A stretch of DNA of 12,841 nt from Candidatus Nanohaloarchaea archaeon. GTDB lineage: Archaea > Nanohalarchaeota > Nanosalinia > Nanosalinales > Nanosalinaceae. Positions 3,001-9,000 of the stretch are shown in pieces. Position numbers: made by a program. The stretch spans positions 1 through 12,841 of the forward strand of contig JBDGSE010000034.1 of assembly GCA_042217695.1 (NCBI GenBank), read 5' to 3'. How positions within the stretch are numbered: the first letter of the stretch is position 1; every line of letters begins with the position of its first letter.

Positions 3001-6000
3001 AAACCCGGGGGTCTCTCCGGGTTGTCGCGCTTGTACTTTGATATAAAGGCACGATCAGTCCCAAGGATAAGTCTCTTCTTTTCGTCGCCTGGAACGTATA
3101 TCTCCAGCGTGAGTTCCTCGCCTCTCTGGTATACTTTCTGGACGAAGCCTTCCTCTAGTTCGGAGAACTCCTCCATCAGTGTCGATAGCTCCAGGCTGGT
3201 CAGTTCCATGGAAGGTTCTTGTACGGTGAATTACAAAAAAGGAGTCATTCAAACATGTCGACGCCTTCCTGCTCTGCGTCACGTCCGGCCTGTTCGTTCT
3301 CGAACTGGCGCTTGAACTCGTCCACGGATTCCAGGTCGAAGTAGTCCAGGAAATGGTCCGTCACGTCCAGTATCGCGGTTCTGCCGTCCTTCTCCTTGGA
3401 GAGGAATCCACGGTTCACCAGTTCTTTCACGTGTTGATAGGCGCGGTTGCCCCGGATCTCGACTATGTCGGCCTGTTCCACCGGCGCGTTGTAGGCGATG
3501 AGTGAAAGCGTGCGTAACTGGCCCTCGTTCAGGTCCTGGTGGGGGGCCAGGTGGGAGACGTGTTCCAGGTGAGGTTTCTTCACCTTCAGTTCGTAACCTT
3601 CTCCGGTCTCTATGAGTTCGAGTCCTCGGTGTTCTTCCTCCAGCATCTCCTGGAACTCCTCTATAAGCATGTCGACGTAGCCCATGCTTCCAAGGTTCAG
3701 GATATCGGCGATTTCTTCCCTGTCGACCGGGTCCTCTGCCAGGTAGAGCGCGGCTTCGAGTCGCGCTTTTTTTCCTTCCACCGGGCTATCGCCTCACCGG
3801 GTTGCGTTCCAGATCTGTCTGGAAGCCGGTCTTGGGGTTTGGAAAGGTATTCATCAGTTGGGTACCTCCTCGTCCTCTGGTTTGACCTTCAGCTGGCCGA
3901 GGAACTCTTCCTGTATCAGCTGGACTTTTTCATCGTTTTCAAGGTGTAGTATGTGTTTGAATTTCTCGAGTTTCTCCTCGTTGTCCCCGGTCTCTATCAG
4001 GTGATCGAAGTCGACTTTTTCACGGGTCTCCGATGATACAAGGTTCTTGATCCGTCCGAACAGGGAGTTCAGCTTCTCGGTCAGGTCTTTCTCATCCATC
4101 TCGAAGTGCTGGTCTATCTCCTCACGCATCTCCTGCCTTTCTTCACGGCGTTCCTTGACTTCCATAGCGGATTCCAGGGAGTCTTTAAGCTCGTCCAGAC
4201 TTACCCTGCGTTTAGGCCGCGGCTTTACAGGCATATCGAGTTCGGGACCCATATCCAGGTCTGGGTCTCTCTCGTAGCCTCCGGCTTCCTCTTCTATCGG
4301 TTCCTCGAAATCCATCGGGTTCTCTTCTTCCTCGGTTTCCTCCTCGAGGTAGAGTGCGCGGGCCTTCATGTTGAGCAACGCCGCGGCGATGCGGATGGCT
4401 CTCGCCGGAACCGATAGATCGTACTCCTGCATCTCGCTCAGGTATTCTCTGTAGCGGTCTGTGAGAACTATTATGTCTATACTTTCGGGGTCCATGTCAG
4501 CGGTGAGTATGTCTATGGTCTCCTCCCAGGGTTGCTCCGCCAGCATCTTCACGTCGTACTCTTCCATAGTCGGCCCTCATAATCCCAACCCCCCGTAAAA
4601 CCGATTTGTGCGTCACACTATTTAATTATAGGGTGCGGCCCGGCTTTATTAACGGGTAGGAACTATTTTTTTATGATGGCGGAAGCCGAGGAGAAGATAC
4701 AGGAGGTCGCAGAGAAGAACGAGGGAGATCCCAGCCGCCTTGAGACCTCACTTGCCCTGAAAGCCGACAGACTGATGGATATACTCCAGCTGTTCGTTGT
4801 ATATCTCCTTGTGGTGCTGTTCGGCATAGGAGTCTACGATCTGGGTGTCAAACTCTTTAGTTTCGTTGTCACAGGTAAGATAGTGAATCCTGCGAACGTT
4901 GTGGCGATTCTTGACACCGCATTACTCCTTTTCCTGGTTGTGGAGGTATTCAGGACGTCCGTGGCGCATCTGGAGGATAAGAAGGTGCTGCCGCTGGTGA
5001 TCGATGTGGCCATAATAGGCGTGGTGCGGAGCCTGATAACCTTCCGCGTGGGAGAGTATTCGCAGCCCGTTGACGCGTTACTGGCCTCGTCCTCCTATGC
5101 ATTGACGCTCGTGGTCCTTATTGGAGGGTACTACATTGTACACCGCCAGGAGAGAAAGCCCCTGGACAACCATCCGCCGGAAGAAAGATGACTGACGAGA
5201 GAGTACGTGAACTGGCCCGGAAGGCAGACCAGTTGAGAGAGTACATTGAACTTGTACTGTCGTTCCTGATTCTTTTGACATTCGTCACGGCGGTTTACTC
5301 GCTTGCCTACAACCTGAGACTGTTTATCGGGGGAGAACGCAGTGTTGCAGCGGTTATATCTTTCCTCAGTACTGTGCTTCTGCTAGGTATCCTGTCGGAC
5401 GTATACGGCCTGACCGTTGACGAGTTGCTTGATAGAAGGACTCTAAACGGTTTCATGTCGCTGCTGATAATCGCCACGTCTATCGGGGTACTTGAGGACT
5501 GGATAGGTTCTCTCGGAGCCCTTAATCCTGTACAGATGCTGGTTTACTCCTCGCTGTTCTCCGGCATGTTGCTGCTGGGTTTCGTGGGTTTCCACGTGAC
5601 TCGTTAATTATCCAGCTCGATACTCCTCATCTTGGAGACTCCTTCACGCATCGATACGCCGTAGGCGCGTTCTGCGTGCCTTACCGTGATATCGTTGTGT
5701 GAGATCACGATGAACTGGTTCTCCTCGGCGTAGTCCTTCAAAAGCTCGGAGAGTTTCTTCGAGTTTGTCTCGTCCAGTGCGGCGTCTATCTCGTCCATTA
5801 TGTAGAAAGGAGATTCCTCGTACTCCAGTATCGCGAAGACGAACGCGATGGCGGTCATAGTCTTCTCTCCACCGCTCAACGCATCGATTATATGTGGGTC
5901 CTTCCCTGGCGGCGCGGCCCTGATCTTCAGTCCTTTCTCGATATCGTCGTCTTCTAGGACCAGCTCACCTTCTCCACCGTCGAACAGTTTCTCGAATATC

Positions 6001-9000
6001 CGGGAGAAGCTATCCTTTATCTCTTCCAGGGTATCCATGAACCTCTCGCGTTTCTCCTGTTCGATCTCCTCTATCCAGTCCTCTATCTCCAGTTTCTCCT
6101 GTCTTATCTCGGAGAGCTTTTCCTTGAACTCGTCGAACTCCTCCTTCTTCTCCTTGTACTCATCGATGGCACGCATGTTGACCGGCCCCATCGAGTTCTG
6201 CTTCTTCACGATCTTCCGCTTCTTCTTTTTCAGTTCTTCAGGGGAGGATTCCAGACCTGTCAGCTCGTCTTCGTCGTAATCGTAATCCTCCAGGTCGTCT
6301 TTCACGTTTTTCAGCTCGGATTTCAGATTGGCTTTCTTGCTGCCGACCTCGTCGACCTTGGTCTTCAGCTTCTGCATCTCCGAGTACTTCTCCTGTCTCT
6401 CATCCCGGAGATCCTGCAGATCTTCACGTATCTGTTTCTTCTCTTCCTTCAGTTCCTCGTCTGTCTCCATCTCCTCCTCTTTCCGTTCCTTCATCTTCTT
6501 CAGTTCGGCTATGTCCTTCTGGAGTTCCTCGATTTCCTGCTCGACCTCTTTCTTCTCCTCCTTCTTTTTCTGCGGGTCCAGGCTGGAACTCGAGGAAGAG
6601 GAAGAGTTGCGCGACTTTTTCTTCTTGCCGCCGGACATAGCTCCGCCCCGGGACATAACGTCTCCGTCAAGCGTTACCACCCGGACGCCGTCGATGTCCT
6701 TCACAGAGTCCAGGTCCTCCGCCACCAGCGTGTCGGAGAAGACGTAGTTCACCGCGATGTCGTACTTCGGGTCGTTGTCCACCAGTTCCGCGGCGTAGTC
6801 GATAACCCCTTTACGTTTCTTTGCCATCTTTGACTTGGCGGACCGTGACCTGTCCTTTATCTTGTCCAGCGGCAGGAAACGGGCTCTCCCTATGTTCTCC
6901 CTCTTCAGGTAGTTTATCGCCTCGATAGAGGTATCCTTGTCTTCTACAACGACGTCGTTCATGTGGCCGCCCGCCGCGGTCTCTATCGCGACCTGAAACC
7001 GGCTTTCGTGCGAGATCAGGTCCTGGAAGACCCCGTTTATACTGTCGTTTTCAAGCGACAGCACCGCGTCGACAGCCTTTGAACCTGTGCTCCTGCGCTC
7101 CTGCATCTTCTCGAGTTCCTCTATGGTTTCCTCCAGGTCCTCCAGCTTGTCGCGTTTGTTCTCTATCTTGCCTTCCTTCTTCTCTATACGGTTCTCGAGG
7201 TGTTCGATGTCGTTGTTGCCGCCCTGTTTCTCCTCGATCTCTTCTATACGGTCCTGTTTCTCGTCTATCTCCTGGTCTATCTCTTCCAGCTCTTTTTCAT
7301 ACTCCTCGATCCTCTCCTTGTTTTCCGAGACGTCCGTGTTGATGTTCGCAAGCCGGTTGCTCAGGGCACGTTTCCGGACCTCAAGGATCGATGCCTGCAG
7401 TTTCTCCTTTCTCTCCTCCAGTTCCCGGTATTTTAACGCGAGCTCCTTGTCCTCCTTCAGTTTCTCCAGGTACTGCTTCTTTTCATCGAGAAGTATCTCC
7501 TGTTCCTGGAGTTTCTGTTCTACCTCCTCCAGTTCTTCCTCTGCTTCTTCCTTCTTCTCGTCGAACTCTGCGACCCCGGAGAGCTCGTCTATAACCTTTC
7601 TCCTCTCCACGTCGCTCTGCTCCACTATCTCTGTTACACGACCCTGTCTCACGAAGTGGTATCCCTCCGGGTCGATGTTGGCCTTCCGGCAGATCTCGTC
7701 GATCTTCTTGCGTTTACAGTTCGAGCCCTGGAACTTGTAGATCGAGGAACCCGCCCGTGTTATCTTCCTGGCGACTGTTATCTCGTCCGCTTCTTCCTCA
7801 TCTTCCAGGAACTCGTCAAATATCCCGGAGGTGTTGTCCAGATAGACCGTTACCTTTGCGTAGTCGGCGGGCTTCCTGTTCTCCCCGCCGTTGAATATCA
7901 GTTGTTCAAGTCTCTCCGCCCTGAGTTTTGAGGACCTCCTCCCGAAGACAAAGCTTACTCCGTCAAGGATGTTCGACTTGCCGTTCCCGTTCTCGCCGAC
8001 TATCGCGGTGAGACCCTTGTAAAACGGTATAGAAGTCTTTCTCTGGAACGATTTGAAACCCTTGAAGGTGACCTTGTTTATCTTGGTCTCTGAGGGTTGC
8101 GCTTCCTGTTTCTGTTCAGTCTCCAACATCTAGCATACATTTATCTGGCAGGATTAAAAATCACTTGGAAACGGGAAAGAAAAAGAGGGTGTTAAGGCGT
8201 CAACCTGTCCGGAGTCCGTGGGAACAGGATGGCCTCTTTGATGTTGTCCAGGTCTGCTATCTGCTTCACCAGCCGGTCGATTCCCAGACCGTACCCGCCG
8301 TGGGGAGGCATGCCGAACTTGAAAGCCTCCAGGTAGAACTCGAAGTTCTCCGGGTCGGCGCCCTGTTCCTTCAGCTTCCTCATCAACGTCTCGAAGTCGT
8401 GCTCTCTCTGACCTCCAGAGGCGAGTTCCAGACCCTTGTAGATCAGATCGTAGCGCCTGGACTGCACGTCGTCCCCGGGTTCCGCACCCTTGTAGTAGAA
8501 CTTCTCGTTGGGGTACCCGACGACGAAGAACGCAGGGTGTCCCTCTTCCTCGAAGTACTCCCCCAGGAGTCTCTCGCCCTTGGTGTCGAGGTCGTCGTCC
8601 TCCTCGGGGACATGGTCGAACTCCTGTTTCAGAAGTTCTCTTGCCCGTTCAAAACTTATACGCGGGAAGTCCTCCTCAGGTACTTCCAGGTCGACGTCCA
8701 TTACATCAAGTTCTTCCGCGGCACGCTCCTGGAGCTTTTCCAGTGTGTACCGCAGGGATTCCTCCTGGACATCCATCACGTCGTTGTGGTCGTCGATGAA
8801 TGCGAGTTCTACGTCGAACATGGAGATCTCGGAGACGTGCCGAGAGGTGGCGAACTCCTCCGCCCGGAACGCGGTACCTGTCTCATAGACCTTGTCGAAT
8901 CCGGCGGCCATCAGCATCTGCTTGTACAGCTGTGGGGACTGTGAAAGGAAAGCTTCCTCGCCGTAGTAAACCACCGGGAACAGTTCAGCGCCTCCCTCGG

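What a model noticed while it worked through the whole genome (the two positions that open the first line are those of the whole stretch)
3245..8129. Half-length Smc arm (~170 aa) fixed across Nanohalarchaeota, in an intact Smc-ScpAB operon
The Smc is 841 aa with intact Walker A/B, signature motif and hinge, but its coiled-coil arms are about 165 and 185 residues, half the usual 340, and it lies with scpA and scpB. This length is fixed across the phylum, making it a natural lineage-wide mini-condensin about two super-helical periods shorter than Bacillus Smc.
Evidence so far: Sequence and gene order; helix limits 188-345 and 519-716. 67 of 70 class genomes match, and full-length matches in all five families span about 840 aa in one frame. 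Of 119 top homologs 110 are 820-880 aa and 7 are intein-bearing forms over 1300 aa. PMC5344682 (passages; Table S4 parts 1 and 23): main arm modes 238, 341, 515, a 'possible' minor one at 163; only 3 of 3,337 prokaryotic sequences have arms of 173 or less; engineered B. subtilis arms were functional down to 253 aa, period 91. Searches 31, 32, 57 listed no report for this phylum.
(Added by a program. Inside this text positions count along the whole contig: contig position 1 is position 1 of the stretch shown here. "Call 12" and the like, gene names such as g00115 and contig names such as C1 are that model's own, and its searches are not shown. The text may have been shortened before it was handed on; [...] marks where a part breaks off. 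The agent that wrote the report below was given it as the finding of a first reader that could run no searches.)

Follow-up and report, generated by a model that had tools for sequence, protein, structure and literature searches.

The report
Half-length chromosome-folding motor in nanoarchaea
Three groups of tiny symbiotic archaea carry a chromosome-folding motor whose arms are half the usual length, a length that did not work when engineered into a bacterium, so they offer a natural test of how arm length sets the motor's step.

Summary
The short arm is real: the 841-aa Smc has all ATPase, hinge and joint features and arms of 158/188 aa (mean 173 against 344 in Bacillus). Two claims need correcting. 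(1) It is not an intact operon in this genome: two opposite-strand genes separate smc from scpA-scpB. (2) It is not limited to Nanohalarchaeota. The same arm is found in Aenigmatarchaeota (147 of 150 listed matches, no long form seen) and in 24 Undinarchaeota-type proteins (172-174.5 aa); Nanoarchaeota and Micrarchaeota, with equally small genomes, keep full-length Smc. All short forms kept the head-proximal half and lost the hinge-proximal half, the design of the engineered Bacillus mini-Smcs, of which 21 of 22 with 159-180-aa arms gave no colonies. Arms are under purifying selection like the heads. One nanohalo-type row already sits, unremarked, in the 2017 table behind the 'possible' 163 mode. 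Best reading: a working condensin with a ~24-nm ring and ~100-bp steps (inferred), and a large shared deletion that supports Nanohalarchaeota + Aenigmatarchaeota. Seen in passing: most Iainarchaeota Smc carry a zinc hook instead of a hinge.

The parts
5604..8129 (-). smc, 841 aa, hinge-type SMC ATPase with half-length arms
7572..8084 (-). N-terminal head, aa 16-186 (Walker A GENGNGKS, R70, Q-loop Q162); intein site right after Walker A in some relatives
7098..7571 (-). N-strand of the arm, aa 187-344 (158 aa); helices 187-299 and 308-344; collinear with the head-proximal half of full-length archaeal arms
6603..7097 (-). hinge, aa 345-509, with the G-x6-G-x3-GG motif (G489, G496, G500, G501)
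6039..6602 (-). C-strand of the arm, aa 510-697 (188 aa); helices 519-553, 559-614, 630-646, 654-716
6171..6287 (-). Smc joint, aa ~615-653 (helix-loop interruption ending in MGPVNMRA), retained
5607..6038 (-). C-terminal head, aa 698-841 (signature LSGGE, Walker B/D-loop YIMDEIDAALD, H-loop VISH)
5188..5607 (+). 139-aa hydrophobic ORF, no family, convergent with smc (stop codons overlap); interrupts the cluster
4673..5191 (+). PsiE-family membrane protein gene; interrupts the cluster
   Evidence: (PF06146, E 2e-10)
3854..4567 (-). scpA kleisin, 237 aa, with its own AT-rich upstream region (4568-4672)
3245..3781 (-). scpB kite homolog, 178 aa
1332..3209 (-). rqcH, conserved downstream neighbour (same order smc-scpA-scpB-rqcH in Aenigmatarchaeota locus L052)

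Best explanation
This is the cell's canonical Smc (prokaryotic condensin ATPase), working with the kleisin ScpA and probably ScpB. An ancestor lost the hinge-proximal half of both arm strands (about 165-170 aa each) and the hinge was joined to the head-proximal half, keeping neck, joint and one conserved mid-arm break. SHOWN: motifs, fold model, which half was lost, fixation in Nanohalarchaeota, Aenigmatarchaeota and Undinarchaeota-type proteins, purifying selection, absence of a second long Smc in the genomes searched. INFERRED: it still cycles rod -> ATP-opened ring -> zip-up and translocates on DNA by segment capture, but with an arm of ~24 nm instead of ~47 nm, so each cycle captures about 100 bp instead of about 200 bp and must bend DNA about twice as hard; this is enough for a ~1-Mb chromosome but was not enough for fast-growing Bacillus.
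For: Motifs: Walker A 110, signature, Walker B, H-loop and hinge glycines 111 of 111 Nanohalarchaeota-type proteins; 24, 24, 24, 24, 23 of 24 Undinarchaeota-type. Model with continuous arm helices, joint and hinge, pLDDT 76; best sequence matches in the PDB are Pyrococcus Smc heads. Profile-profile alignment: short N-strand aligns almost gap-free to residues 153-334 and short C-strand to 833-1034 of a 1164-aa Smc (E 4e-36, 2e-39; next-best registers E 1e-9, 2e-15). Arm pN 0.14-0.16, heads 0.12-0.14, hinge 0.16, pS 0.76-0.87 over 435 pairs of 30 loci. Length tightly held: sd 0.7 in 30 Nanohalarchaeota loci, 3.1 in 30 Aenigmatarchaeota loci, 172-174.5 in 24 Undinarchaeota-type proteins. scpB in 59 of 70 genomes, 27 of 28 good ones; smc-scpA-scpB-rqcH order shared with an Aenigmatarchaeota record. 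Simulations on an archaeal Smc-ScpA say the step (216 +/- 71 bp) is set mainly by the head-hinge distance (PMC13102395); linear scaling gives 103 bp. 173 falls in the window 162-176 obtained by stepping the Bacillus window 253-267 down by 91.
Against: No function, expression or binding was observed. Bacillus constructs of 159-180 aa gave zero colony area in 21 of 22 cases and 0.005 in one, so this length does not work in the one tested system (a 158-aa construct scored 0.089, like the 343/344-aa controls at 0.07-0.08 but far below the 0.3-2.4 of most working ones). In the simulations captured loops of 138 +/- 29 bp failed to translocate, longer than the ~100 bp expected here; teardrop-loop cost doubles from ~10 to ~20 kT (recalled formula). 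Six archaeal ScpA-ScpB pairs did not bind in vitro (PMC7055376). Loss of smc barely affects Thermococcus growth (PMC11840125), so conservation need not mean loop extrusion.
Confidence: 0.62

Rival explanations
1. The short complex no longer extrudes loops; it is an ATP-gated DNA clamp or tether that holds DNA segments together (cohesion- or RecN-like role in segregation or repair), for which a small ring is enough.
For: Bacillus mini-Smcs of this length are non-functional on rich medium; non-functional mini-Smcs still dimerise, hydrolyse ATP and reach loading sites but do not relocate. Loops under ~140 bp failed in simulation.
Against: Joint, neck and hinge are kept unchanged in register and the arm length is held within a few residues across three phyla, which fits a tuned mechanical cycle better than a passive tether; the genomes have a separate Rad50-like protein with a zinc hook.
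Confidence: 0.22
2. The deletion is a near-neutral result of genome streamlining: archaeal Smc matters little for fitness, so a shorter gene was fixed and its length has no mechanical meaning.
For: Small genomes (0.4-1.9 Mb); weak smc phenotype in Thermococcus; the Rad50-like frame of this genome is also short (755 aa stop to stop).
Against: Nanoarchaeota (143 of 150 listed hinge frames are 1050 aa or longer; 6 of the 7 shorter ones are cut or frameshifted with normal arms, one has a 232 arm) and Micrarchaeota (113 of 119) have genomes of the same size and keep long arms; arm pN equals head pN; no drift in length.
Confidence: 0.12
3. On origin only: Undinarchaeota and the Aenigmatarchaeota-Nanohalarchaeota group shortened the arm independently and landed on the same length because ~173 aa is the next allowed value; the alternative is one deletion, with Nanoarchaeota keeping or regaining a long gene.
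For: Published species trees put Undinarchaeota outside a cluster that holds Nanoarchaeota (PMC7414124), whose hinge-proximal arm still aligns in register with that of other archaea (E 4e-15 against 8e-8 reversed for the C-strand; 7e-10 against 9e-7 for the N-strand). Free head-only trees did not join Undinarchaeota to the other short forms.
Against: Holding all short forms together gave a tree 3.7 log-likelihood units better than the free quick tree (p-AU 0.62); the short arms of both groups align end to end, including the junctions (E 2e-43, 3e-50).
Confidence: 0.4
4. Assembly artefact or decaying gene.
For: The window comes from an incomplete genome bin that also holds a second Smc fragment.
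Against: Same architecture in 56 of 70 plus 147 of 161 genomes; contigs of two runs laid on 3000-9600 show no joints or indels (same study, possibly the source); purifying selection.
Confidence: 0.01

Closest known systems
Archaeal Smc-ScpA(B) (Pyrococcus, Thermococcus; TIGR02169) and Bacillus subtilis Smc-ScpAB
   Same: ABC head motifs, hinge, joint, head-proximal arm in register, kleisin and kite genes
   Different: Arm 173 against 335-350 aa (73 + 27 of 146 measured representatives fall at 320-359); hinge-proximal half missing; scores under the TIGR02169 cut-off (698 against 729)
Engineered Bacillus mini-Smc series (Burmann 2017, PMC5344682)
   Same: Same design: hinge grafted on a shortened head-proximal arm
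   Different: Engineered arms worked only at 253-267 and 321-344; 21 of 22 at 159-180 gave no colonies; here 165-184 is natural and fixed
The 'possible' minor mode at 163 aa in Burmann 2017 Table S4
   Same: Three rows (173, 160, 159); the 173 row has the domain limits of an intein-bearing member of this family, and the 160 row (145/175) resembles P0153 (145/177), which trees among Aenigmatarchaeota
   Different: The text read names no lineage for the mode and draws nothing from it; here it is shown to be a fixed trait of whole phyla
Short natural Smc of the 238-aa mode
   Same: Natural shortening of a canonical Smc; scattered DPANN cases at 232-242 were seen here (P0175, P0184, P0195, L167)
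   Different: 65 aa longer; not phylum-wide in DPANN
Rad50 / RecN / coalescin-like SMC relatives with short arms
   Same: Short coiled coil (recalled)
   Different: This protein has an SMC hinge, no zinc hook, and lies with scpA

Membership tests
Smc of Smc-ScpAB | Split ABC ATPase head with Walker A, Q-loop, signature, Walker B/D-loop, H-loop | tested here: met
Smc of Smc-ScpAB | Central SMC hinge with glycine motif | tested here: met
   PF06470 93 bits, cut-off 22.5; motif in 111 of 111
Smc of Smc-ScpAB | Intramolecular coiled coil with head-proximal joint | tested here: met
   predicted model, alignment to 5XEI, profile alignment; no solved structure
Smc of Smc-ScpAB | Kleisin ScpA encoded | tested here: met
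   PF02616 49 bits, cut-off 24.6; adjacent in most relatives
Smc of Smc-ScpAB | Kite ScpB encoded | tested here: met
   PF04079, TIGR00281 over cut-off; 59 of 70 genomes
Smc of Smc-ScpAB | ScpB binds ScpA in a ternary complex | not testable with these tools
Smc of Smc-ScpAB | Curated family cut-offs | tested here: inconclusive
   TIGR02168 617 over 567; TIGR02169 698 under 729, as expected for a protein lacking ~330 model positions
Smc of Smc-ScpAB | Usual arm of ~340 aa (typical, not defining) | tested here: not met
   173 aa
Smc of Smc-ScpAB | ATP-driven DNA translocation / loop extrusion | not testable with these tools
   needs purified protein
Rad50 / zinc-hook SMC-like proteins | CxxC zinc hook at the apex, no hinge | tested here: not met
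   hinge present; Rad50 models far below cut-off; a separate hook protein lies on contig C2

The most novel reading that the evidence does not exclude
Three DPANN phyla run their chromosomes on a condensin whose ring is too small for the ~200-bp segment capture modelled for full-length Smc, so it either extrudes DNA in steps of about 100 bp, below the length at which capture failed in simulation, or uses another mechanism; and the deletion arose once, joining Undinarchaeota with Aenigmatarchaeota and Nanohalarchaeota to the exclusion of Nanoarchaeota in this gene's history.
Probability: 0.35. Interest if true: 0.9.

Novelty: new variant of a known kind. Interest (0 to 1): 0.74.

Why it matters
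How SMC arm length relates to step size and to the DNA-capture mechanism is an open question, and engineering could not go below 253 aa in Bacillus. A natural 173-aa arm, conserved in hundreds of genomes that include non-halophiles (easier proteins to assay), makes the segment-capture prediction directly testable: step size should halve, or the model needs revising. A ~95-kDa subunit is also an easier target for a full-length structure (inference). Separately, a shared ~330-aa deletion is a large rare change that agrees with the Aenigmatarchaeota-Terrarchaeota-Nanohaloarchaeota clade (PMC13195033) and with small-indel evidence, while the Smc head tree rejects a Nanohalarchaeota-Halobacteria grouping (p-AU 7e-7, one halobacterial row).

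Tried and rejected
Viral contigs: 9 loci, none with a short Smc; best is a 276-aa-arm Smc. Sequencing runs: no RNA holder listed, so nothing on expression; two DNA runs of one study cover the stretch. Cluster-member look-up could not be made, so accession-level names of most proteins are missing; lineage names come from record titles and source names. Fold search added nothing beyond SMC family matches. ESM Atlas did not name the lineage of P0146, the 316-aa-arm protein next to Undinarchaeota. ParB_N not found in this 83%-complete genome: not evidence of absence. Sigma-70 scan is not suited to archaea; only the AT-rich stretch before scpA is noted. Short hinge frames in Nanoarchaeota and Micrarchaeota were suspected further mini-Smcs: 12 were fetched (of 13 under 1050 aa; G508 not fetched) and are contig ends or frameshifts with normal arms, except G348 (232) and G449 (N-strand 275). 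Low-ranked Aenigmatarchaeota genomes were suspected long forms: of 10 rechecked, 6 are short forms split over contigs, 1 has an 878-aa frame, 1 is a head fragment, 2 have no match; G194 and G195 were not rechecked. The third short row of Table S4 (159) was not identified. Altiarchaeota, Huberarchaeota, Terrarchaeota (EX4484-52), SpSt-1190 and Korarchaeota were not surveyed by name. The Ureaplasma preprint gave no arm length in the passages read.
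Full report
THE LOCUS. The window holds, on the minus strand, aspS (8192-9511), smc (5604-8129, 841 aa), scpA (3854-4567), scpB (3245-3781) and rqcH (1332-3209). Between smc and scpA lie two plus-strand genes, a PsiE-family gene (4673-5191) and a 139-aa hydrophobic ORF (5188-5607). So the cluster is interrupted here. Among 29 same-family loci showing both genes, 18 have scpA within 200 bp of smc, 7 have gaps of 250-660 bp, and 4 have the PsiE gene between (gaps measured from tblastn ends). 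An Aenigmatarchaeota record has smc-scpA-scpB-rqcH uninterrupted.

THE PROTEIN. All head motifs and the hinge glycine motif are present and near-invariant. An AlphaFold2 model from a 39-row alignment (mean pLDDT 76, pTM 0.44) gives helices 187-299 and 308-344 before the hinge, 519-553, 559-614, a joint at 615-653 and 654-716 after it. To measure the arm as Burmann 2017 did, I used their Table S4: the row with limits 725/883/1045/1232/1372 falls on the same motifs in P0103, an intein-bearing member of this family, and maps to 186/344/509/697/837 in the window protein. The arms are thus 158 and 188 aa, mean 173, against 344 for Bacillus; and a member of this family was already one of the three rows behind the 'possible' mode at 163. 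With the same anchors 119 of 120 close homologs give 173.9 +/- 1.7.

WHAT WAS LOST. Profile-profile alignment of 76 short arms against 73 full-length arms places the short N-strand on residues 153-334 and the short C-strand on 833-1034 of a 1164-aa reference, almost without gaps and including a conserved mid-arm break (the TIGR02169 match shows the same, model 2-326 and 845-1164). The hinge-proximal half of both strands is gone; neck and joint stay. This is the design of the engineered mini-Smcs. Exact breakpoints cannot be fixed within ~20 residues, since sliding-window scores near the junction are weak (z 2-3).

HOW FAR IT REACHES. In the window's phylum 63 of 70 genomes have an Smc match, 56 have one match spanning both arms, none a long form (my count; the tool's 67 includes four weak matches). 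A profile search of 1.84 billion representatives returned, among 146 measurable of the best 150, 26 with arms of 160-199 and 116 with 300-359 (P0014 counted with the close homologs). One scan of named genomes gave an Aenigmatarchaeota record with an 823-aa Smc. In its phylum 157 of 161 sampled genomes match; 147 of the 150 listed matches span both arms in one piece, and rechecks of 10 low-ranked genomes found no long form; 30 loci give 175.8 +/- 3.1. P0150 and relatives carry source names Naiadarchaeales and Undinarchaeales; 24 such proteins have arms of 172-174.5 (4 of them carry an Undinarchaeota name). By contrast 143 of 150 listed hinge-bearing frames in the phylum of a Woesearchaeota record and 113 of 119 in Micrarchaeota are 1050 aa or longer, and the shorter ones fetched are cut or frameshifted, apart from arms of 232 and an N-strand of 275. 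One Micrarchaeota row (G433) is an unpublished genome; the count does not depend on it. Genome sizes overlap across all these groups, so streamlining alone does not explain the trait.

ORIGIN. In head-only trees Nanohalarchaeota and Aenigmatarchaeota short forms are one clade (SH-aLRT 96; FastTree 0.92-0.98). Grouping the Nanohalarchaeota branch with Halobacteria is rejected (p-AU 7e-7); holding Undinarchaeota with the other short forms is not, and scores 3.7 units better than the free quick tree (35 rows, LG+G4, quick search). The hinge-proximal half of Nanoarchaeota-type long arms aligns with that of other archaea better than with reversed controls (groups assigned by tree position, modest margins), so it looks ancestral, not rebuilt. 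Published trees place Undinarchaeota outside a cluster containing Nanoarchaeota and unite Aenigmatarchaeota, Terrarchaeota and Nanohaloarchaeota. Either one deletion with a discordant gene history (about 0.6) or two arrivals at the same length (about 0.4); either is of interest.

SELECTION. Over 435 pairs of 30 same-family loci pN is 0.14-0.16 in the arms, 0.12-0.14 in the heads, 0.16 in the hinge, with pS near saturation at 0.76-0.87 (pairs are not independent). scpB is found in 59 of 70 genomes, 27 of 28 good ones.

THE TENSION WITH EXPERIMENT. In the Bacillus screen 21 of 22 constructs of 159-180 aa gave zero colony area and one 0.005; a 158-aa construct gave 0.089, close to the low 343/344 values. 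The screen selects for fast growth on rich medium, so failure there does not show that the motor is dead. Simulations of an archaeal Smc-ScpA give a 216 +/- 71-bp step set mainly by head-hinge distance, and failed trajectories held loops of 138 +/- 29 bp. Scaling gives a 24-nm arm, a ~100-bp loop and about twice the bending cost (formula recalled). A histone gene lies in the window; histone-bent DNA could ease capture, which is a guess. Phase is undecided: 171 aa is 1.88, 1.73 or ~1.5 turns for periods of 91, 99 or ~114 aa.

MECHANISM. Most likely a working condensin with short steps (0.62); rivals are a non-extruding clamp (0.22) and near-neutral shrinkage (0.12). That it is a real, maintained Smc is near certain.

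WHAT IS IN PRINT. PMC5344682: abstract, first part of Results and Discussion, the sequence-analysis method, legends, Table S4 parts 1 and 23 of 41, screen table parts 1 and 5 of 18 plus six rows. PMC7055376: passages and Discussion. Passages only: PMC11840125, PMC8665677, 10.1101/2024.01.07.573240, PMC11344861, 10.1101/2025.05.11.653314, PMC13102395, 10.64898/2026.06.17.729505, PMC7414124, PMC5526789, PMC13195033, PMC7203096 (first 300,000 characters held). Searches listed no paper reporting a short Smc arm as a trait of these phyla; the three DPANN phylogeny papers checked contain no 'SMC'. The library lacks most subscription journals, and preprint supplements could not be seen; sequence sets in the SMC evolution papers may contain these proteins.

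VERDICT. Real, wider than reported, operon claim wrong for this genome, the length hinted at in print by three unnamed rows. New variant of a known kind; interest 0.74.

Noticed in passing
L054:4001-6994; L174-L202: Iainarchaeota Smc lacks the hinge: only 5 of 81 sampled genomes match PF06470, while 59 of 61 match the ~990-aa protein; 30 of 30 loci examined have a central CP[VTIL]C[ED] zinc-hook motif. Heads tree inside DPANN Smc next to Micrarchaeota (SH-aLRT 98); ScpA found elsewhere in 3 of 4 hook-type genomes tested. A natural counterpart of the engineered Smc(Zh) chimera; one search listed no report. Some members are shorter still (773-932 aa frames). Deserves its own study.
   Followed up: partly
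relatives P0069, P0075, P0078, P0079, P0082, P0094; G040, G061, G067; 7 Aenigmatarchaeota genomes: A LAGLIDADG-bearing intein sits right after the Walker A lysine of Smc in some short forms; long forms of 1650-1800 aa suggest the same site is used across DPANN.
   Followed up: partly
G000:C33:1-2154: Second Smc N-terminal fragment, intein-bearing, 75-82% identical in the matched parts, on a 2.2-kb contig with the lowest GC of the bin (0.47 against ~0.55): probably from another nanohaloarchaeon.
   Followed up: partly
window 11128-11318 (+): tRNA-Leu(CAA)-like gene with a ~108-nt intron in the anticodon loop; missed by ARAGORN and by the Rfam gathering scan, found with E-value mode. Partial tRNA-like repeats flank it (about 11025-11050 and 11375-11402).
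   Followed up: partly
window 12789-12841 (-): tRNA cut by the window end.
   Followed up: no
G000:C2:4924-7188 (-): Rad50-like frame of 755 aa with CPVC hook; relatives show similar frames of 750-830 aa, so Rad50 may also be short in this phylum.
   Followed up: no
L103:4001-7261: Omnitrophota Smc-like protein (1087 aa) without a Pfam hinge match.
   Followed up: no
L167 (G348), P0175, P0184, P0195, P0263: Scattered DPANN-type Smc with arms of 232-267 aa, i.e. repeated one-period shortenings.
   Followed up: no
window 10656-10874 (-) and 10321-10659 (+): Archaeal histone gene convergent with a 112-aa acidic coiled-coil ORF of no family.
   Followed up: no
L031:2817-5900: An Smc with 263/290-aa arms on a contig filed as viral.
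   Followed up: no
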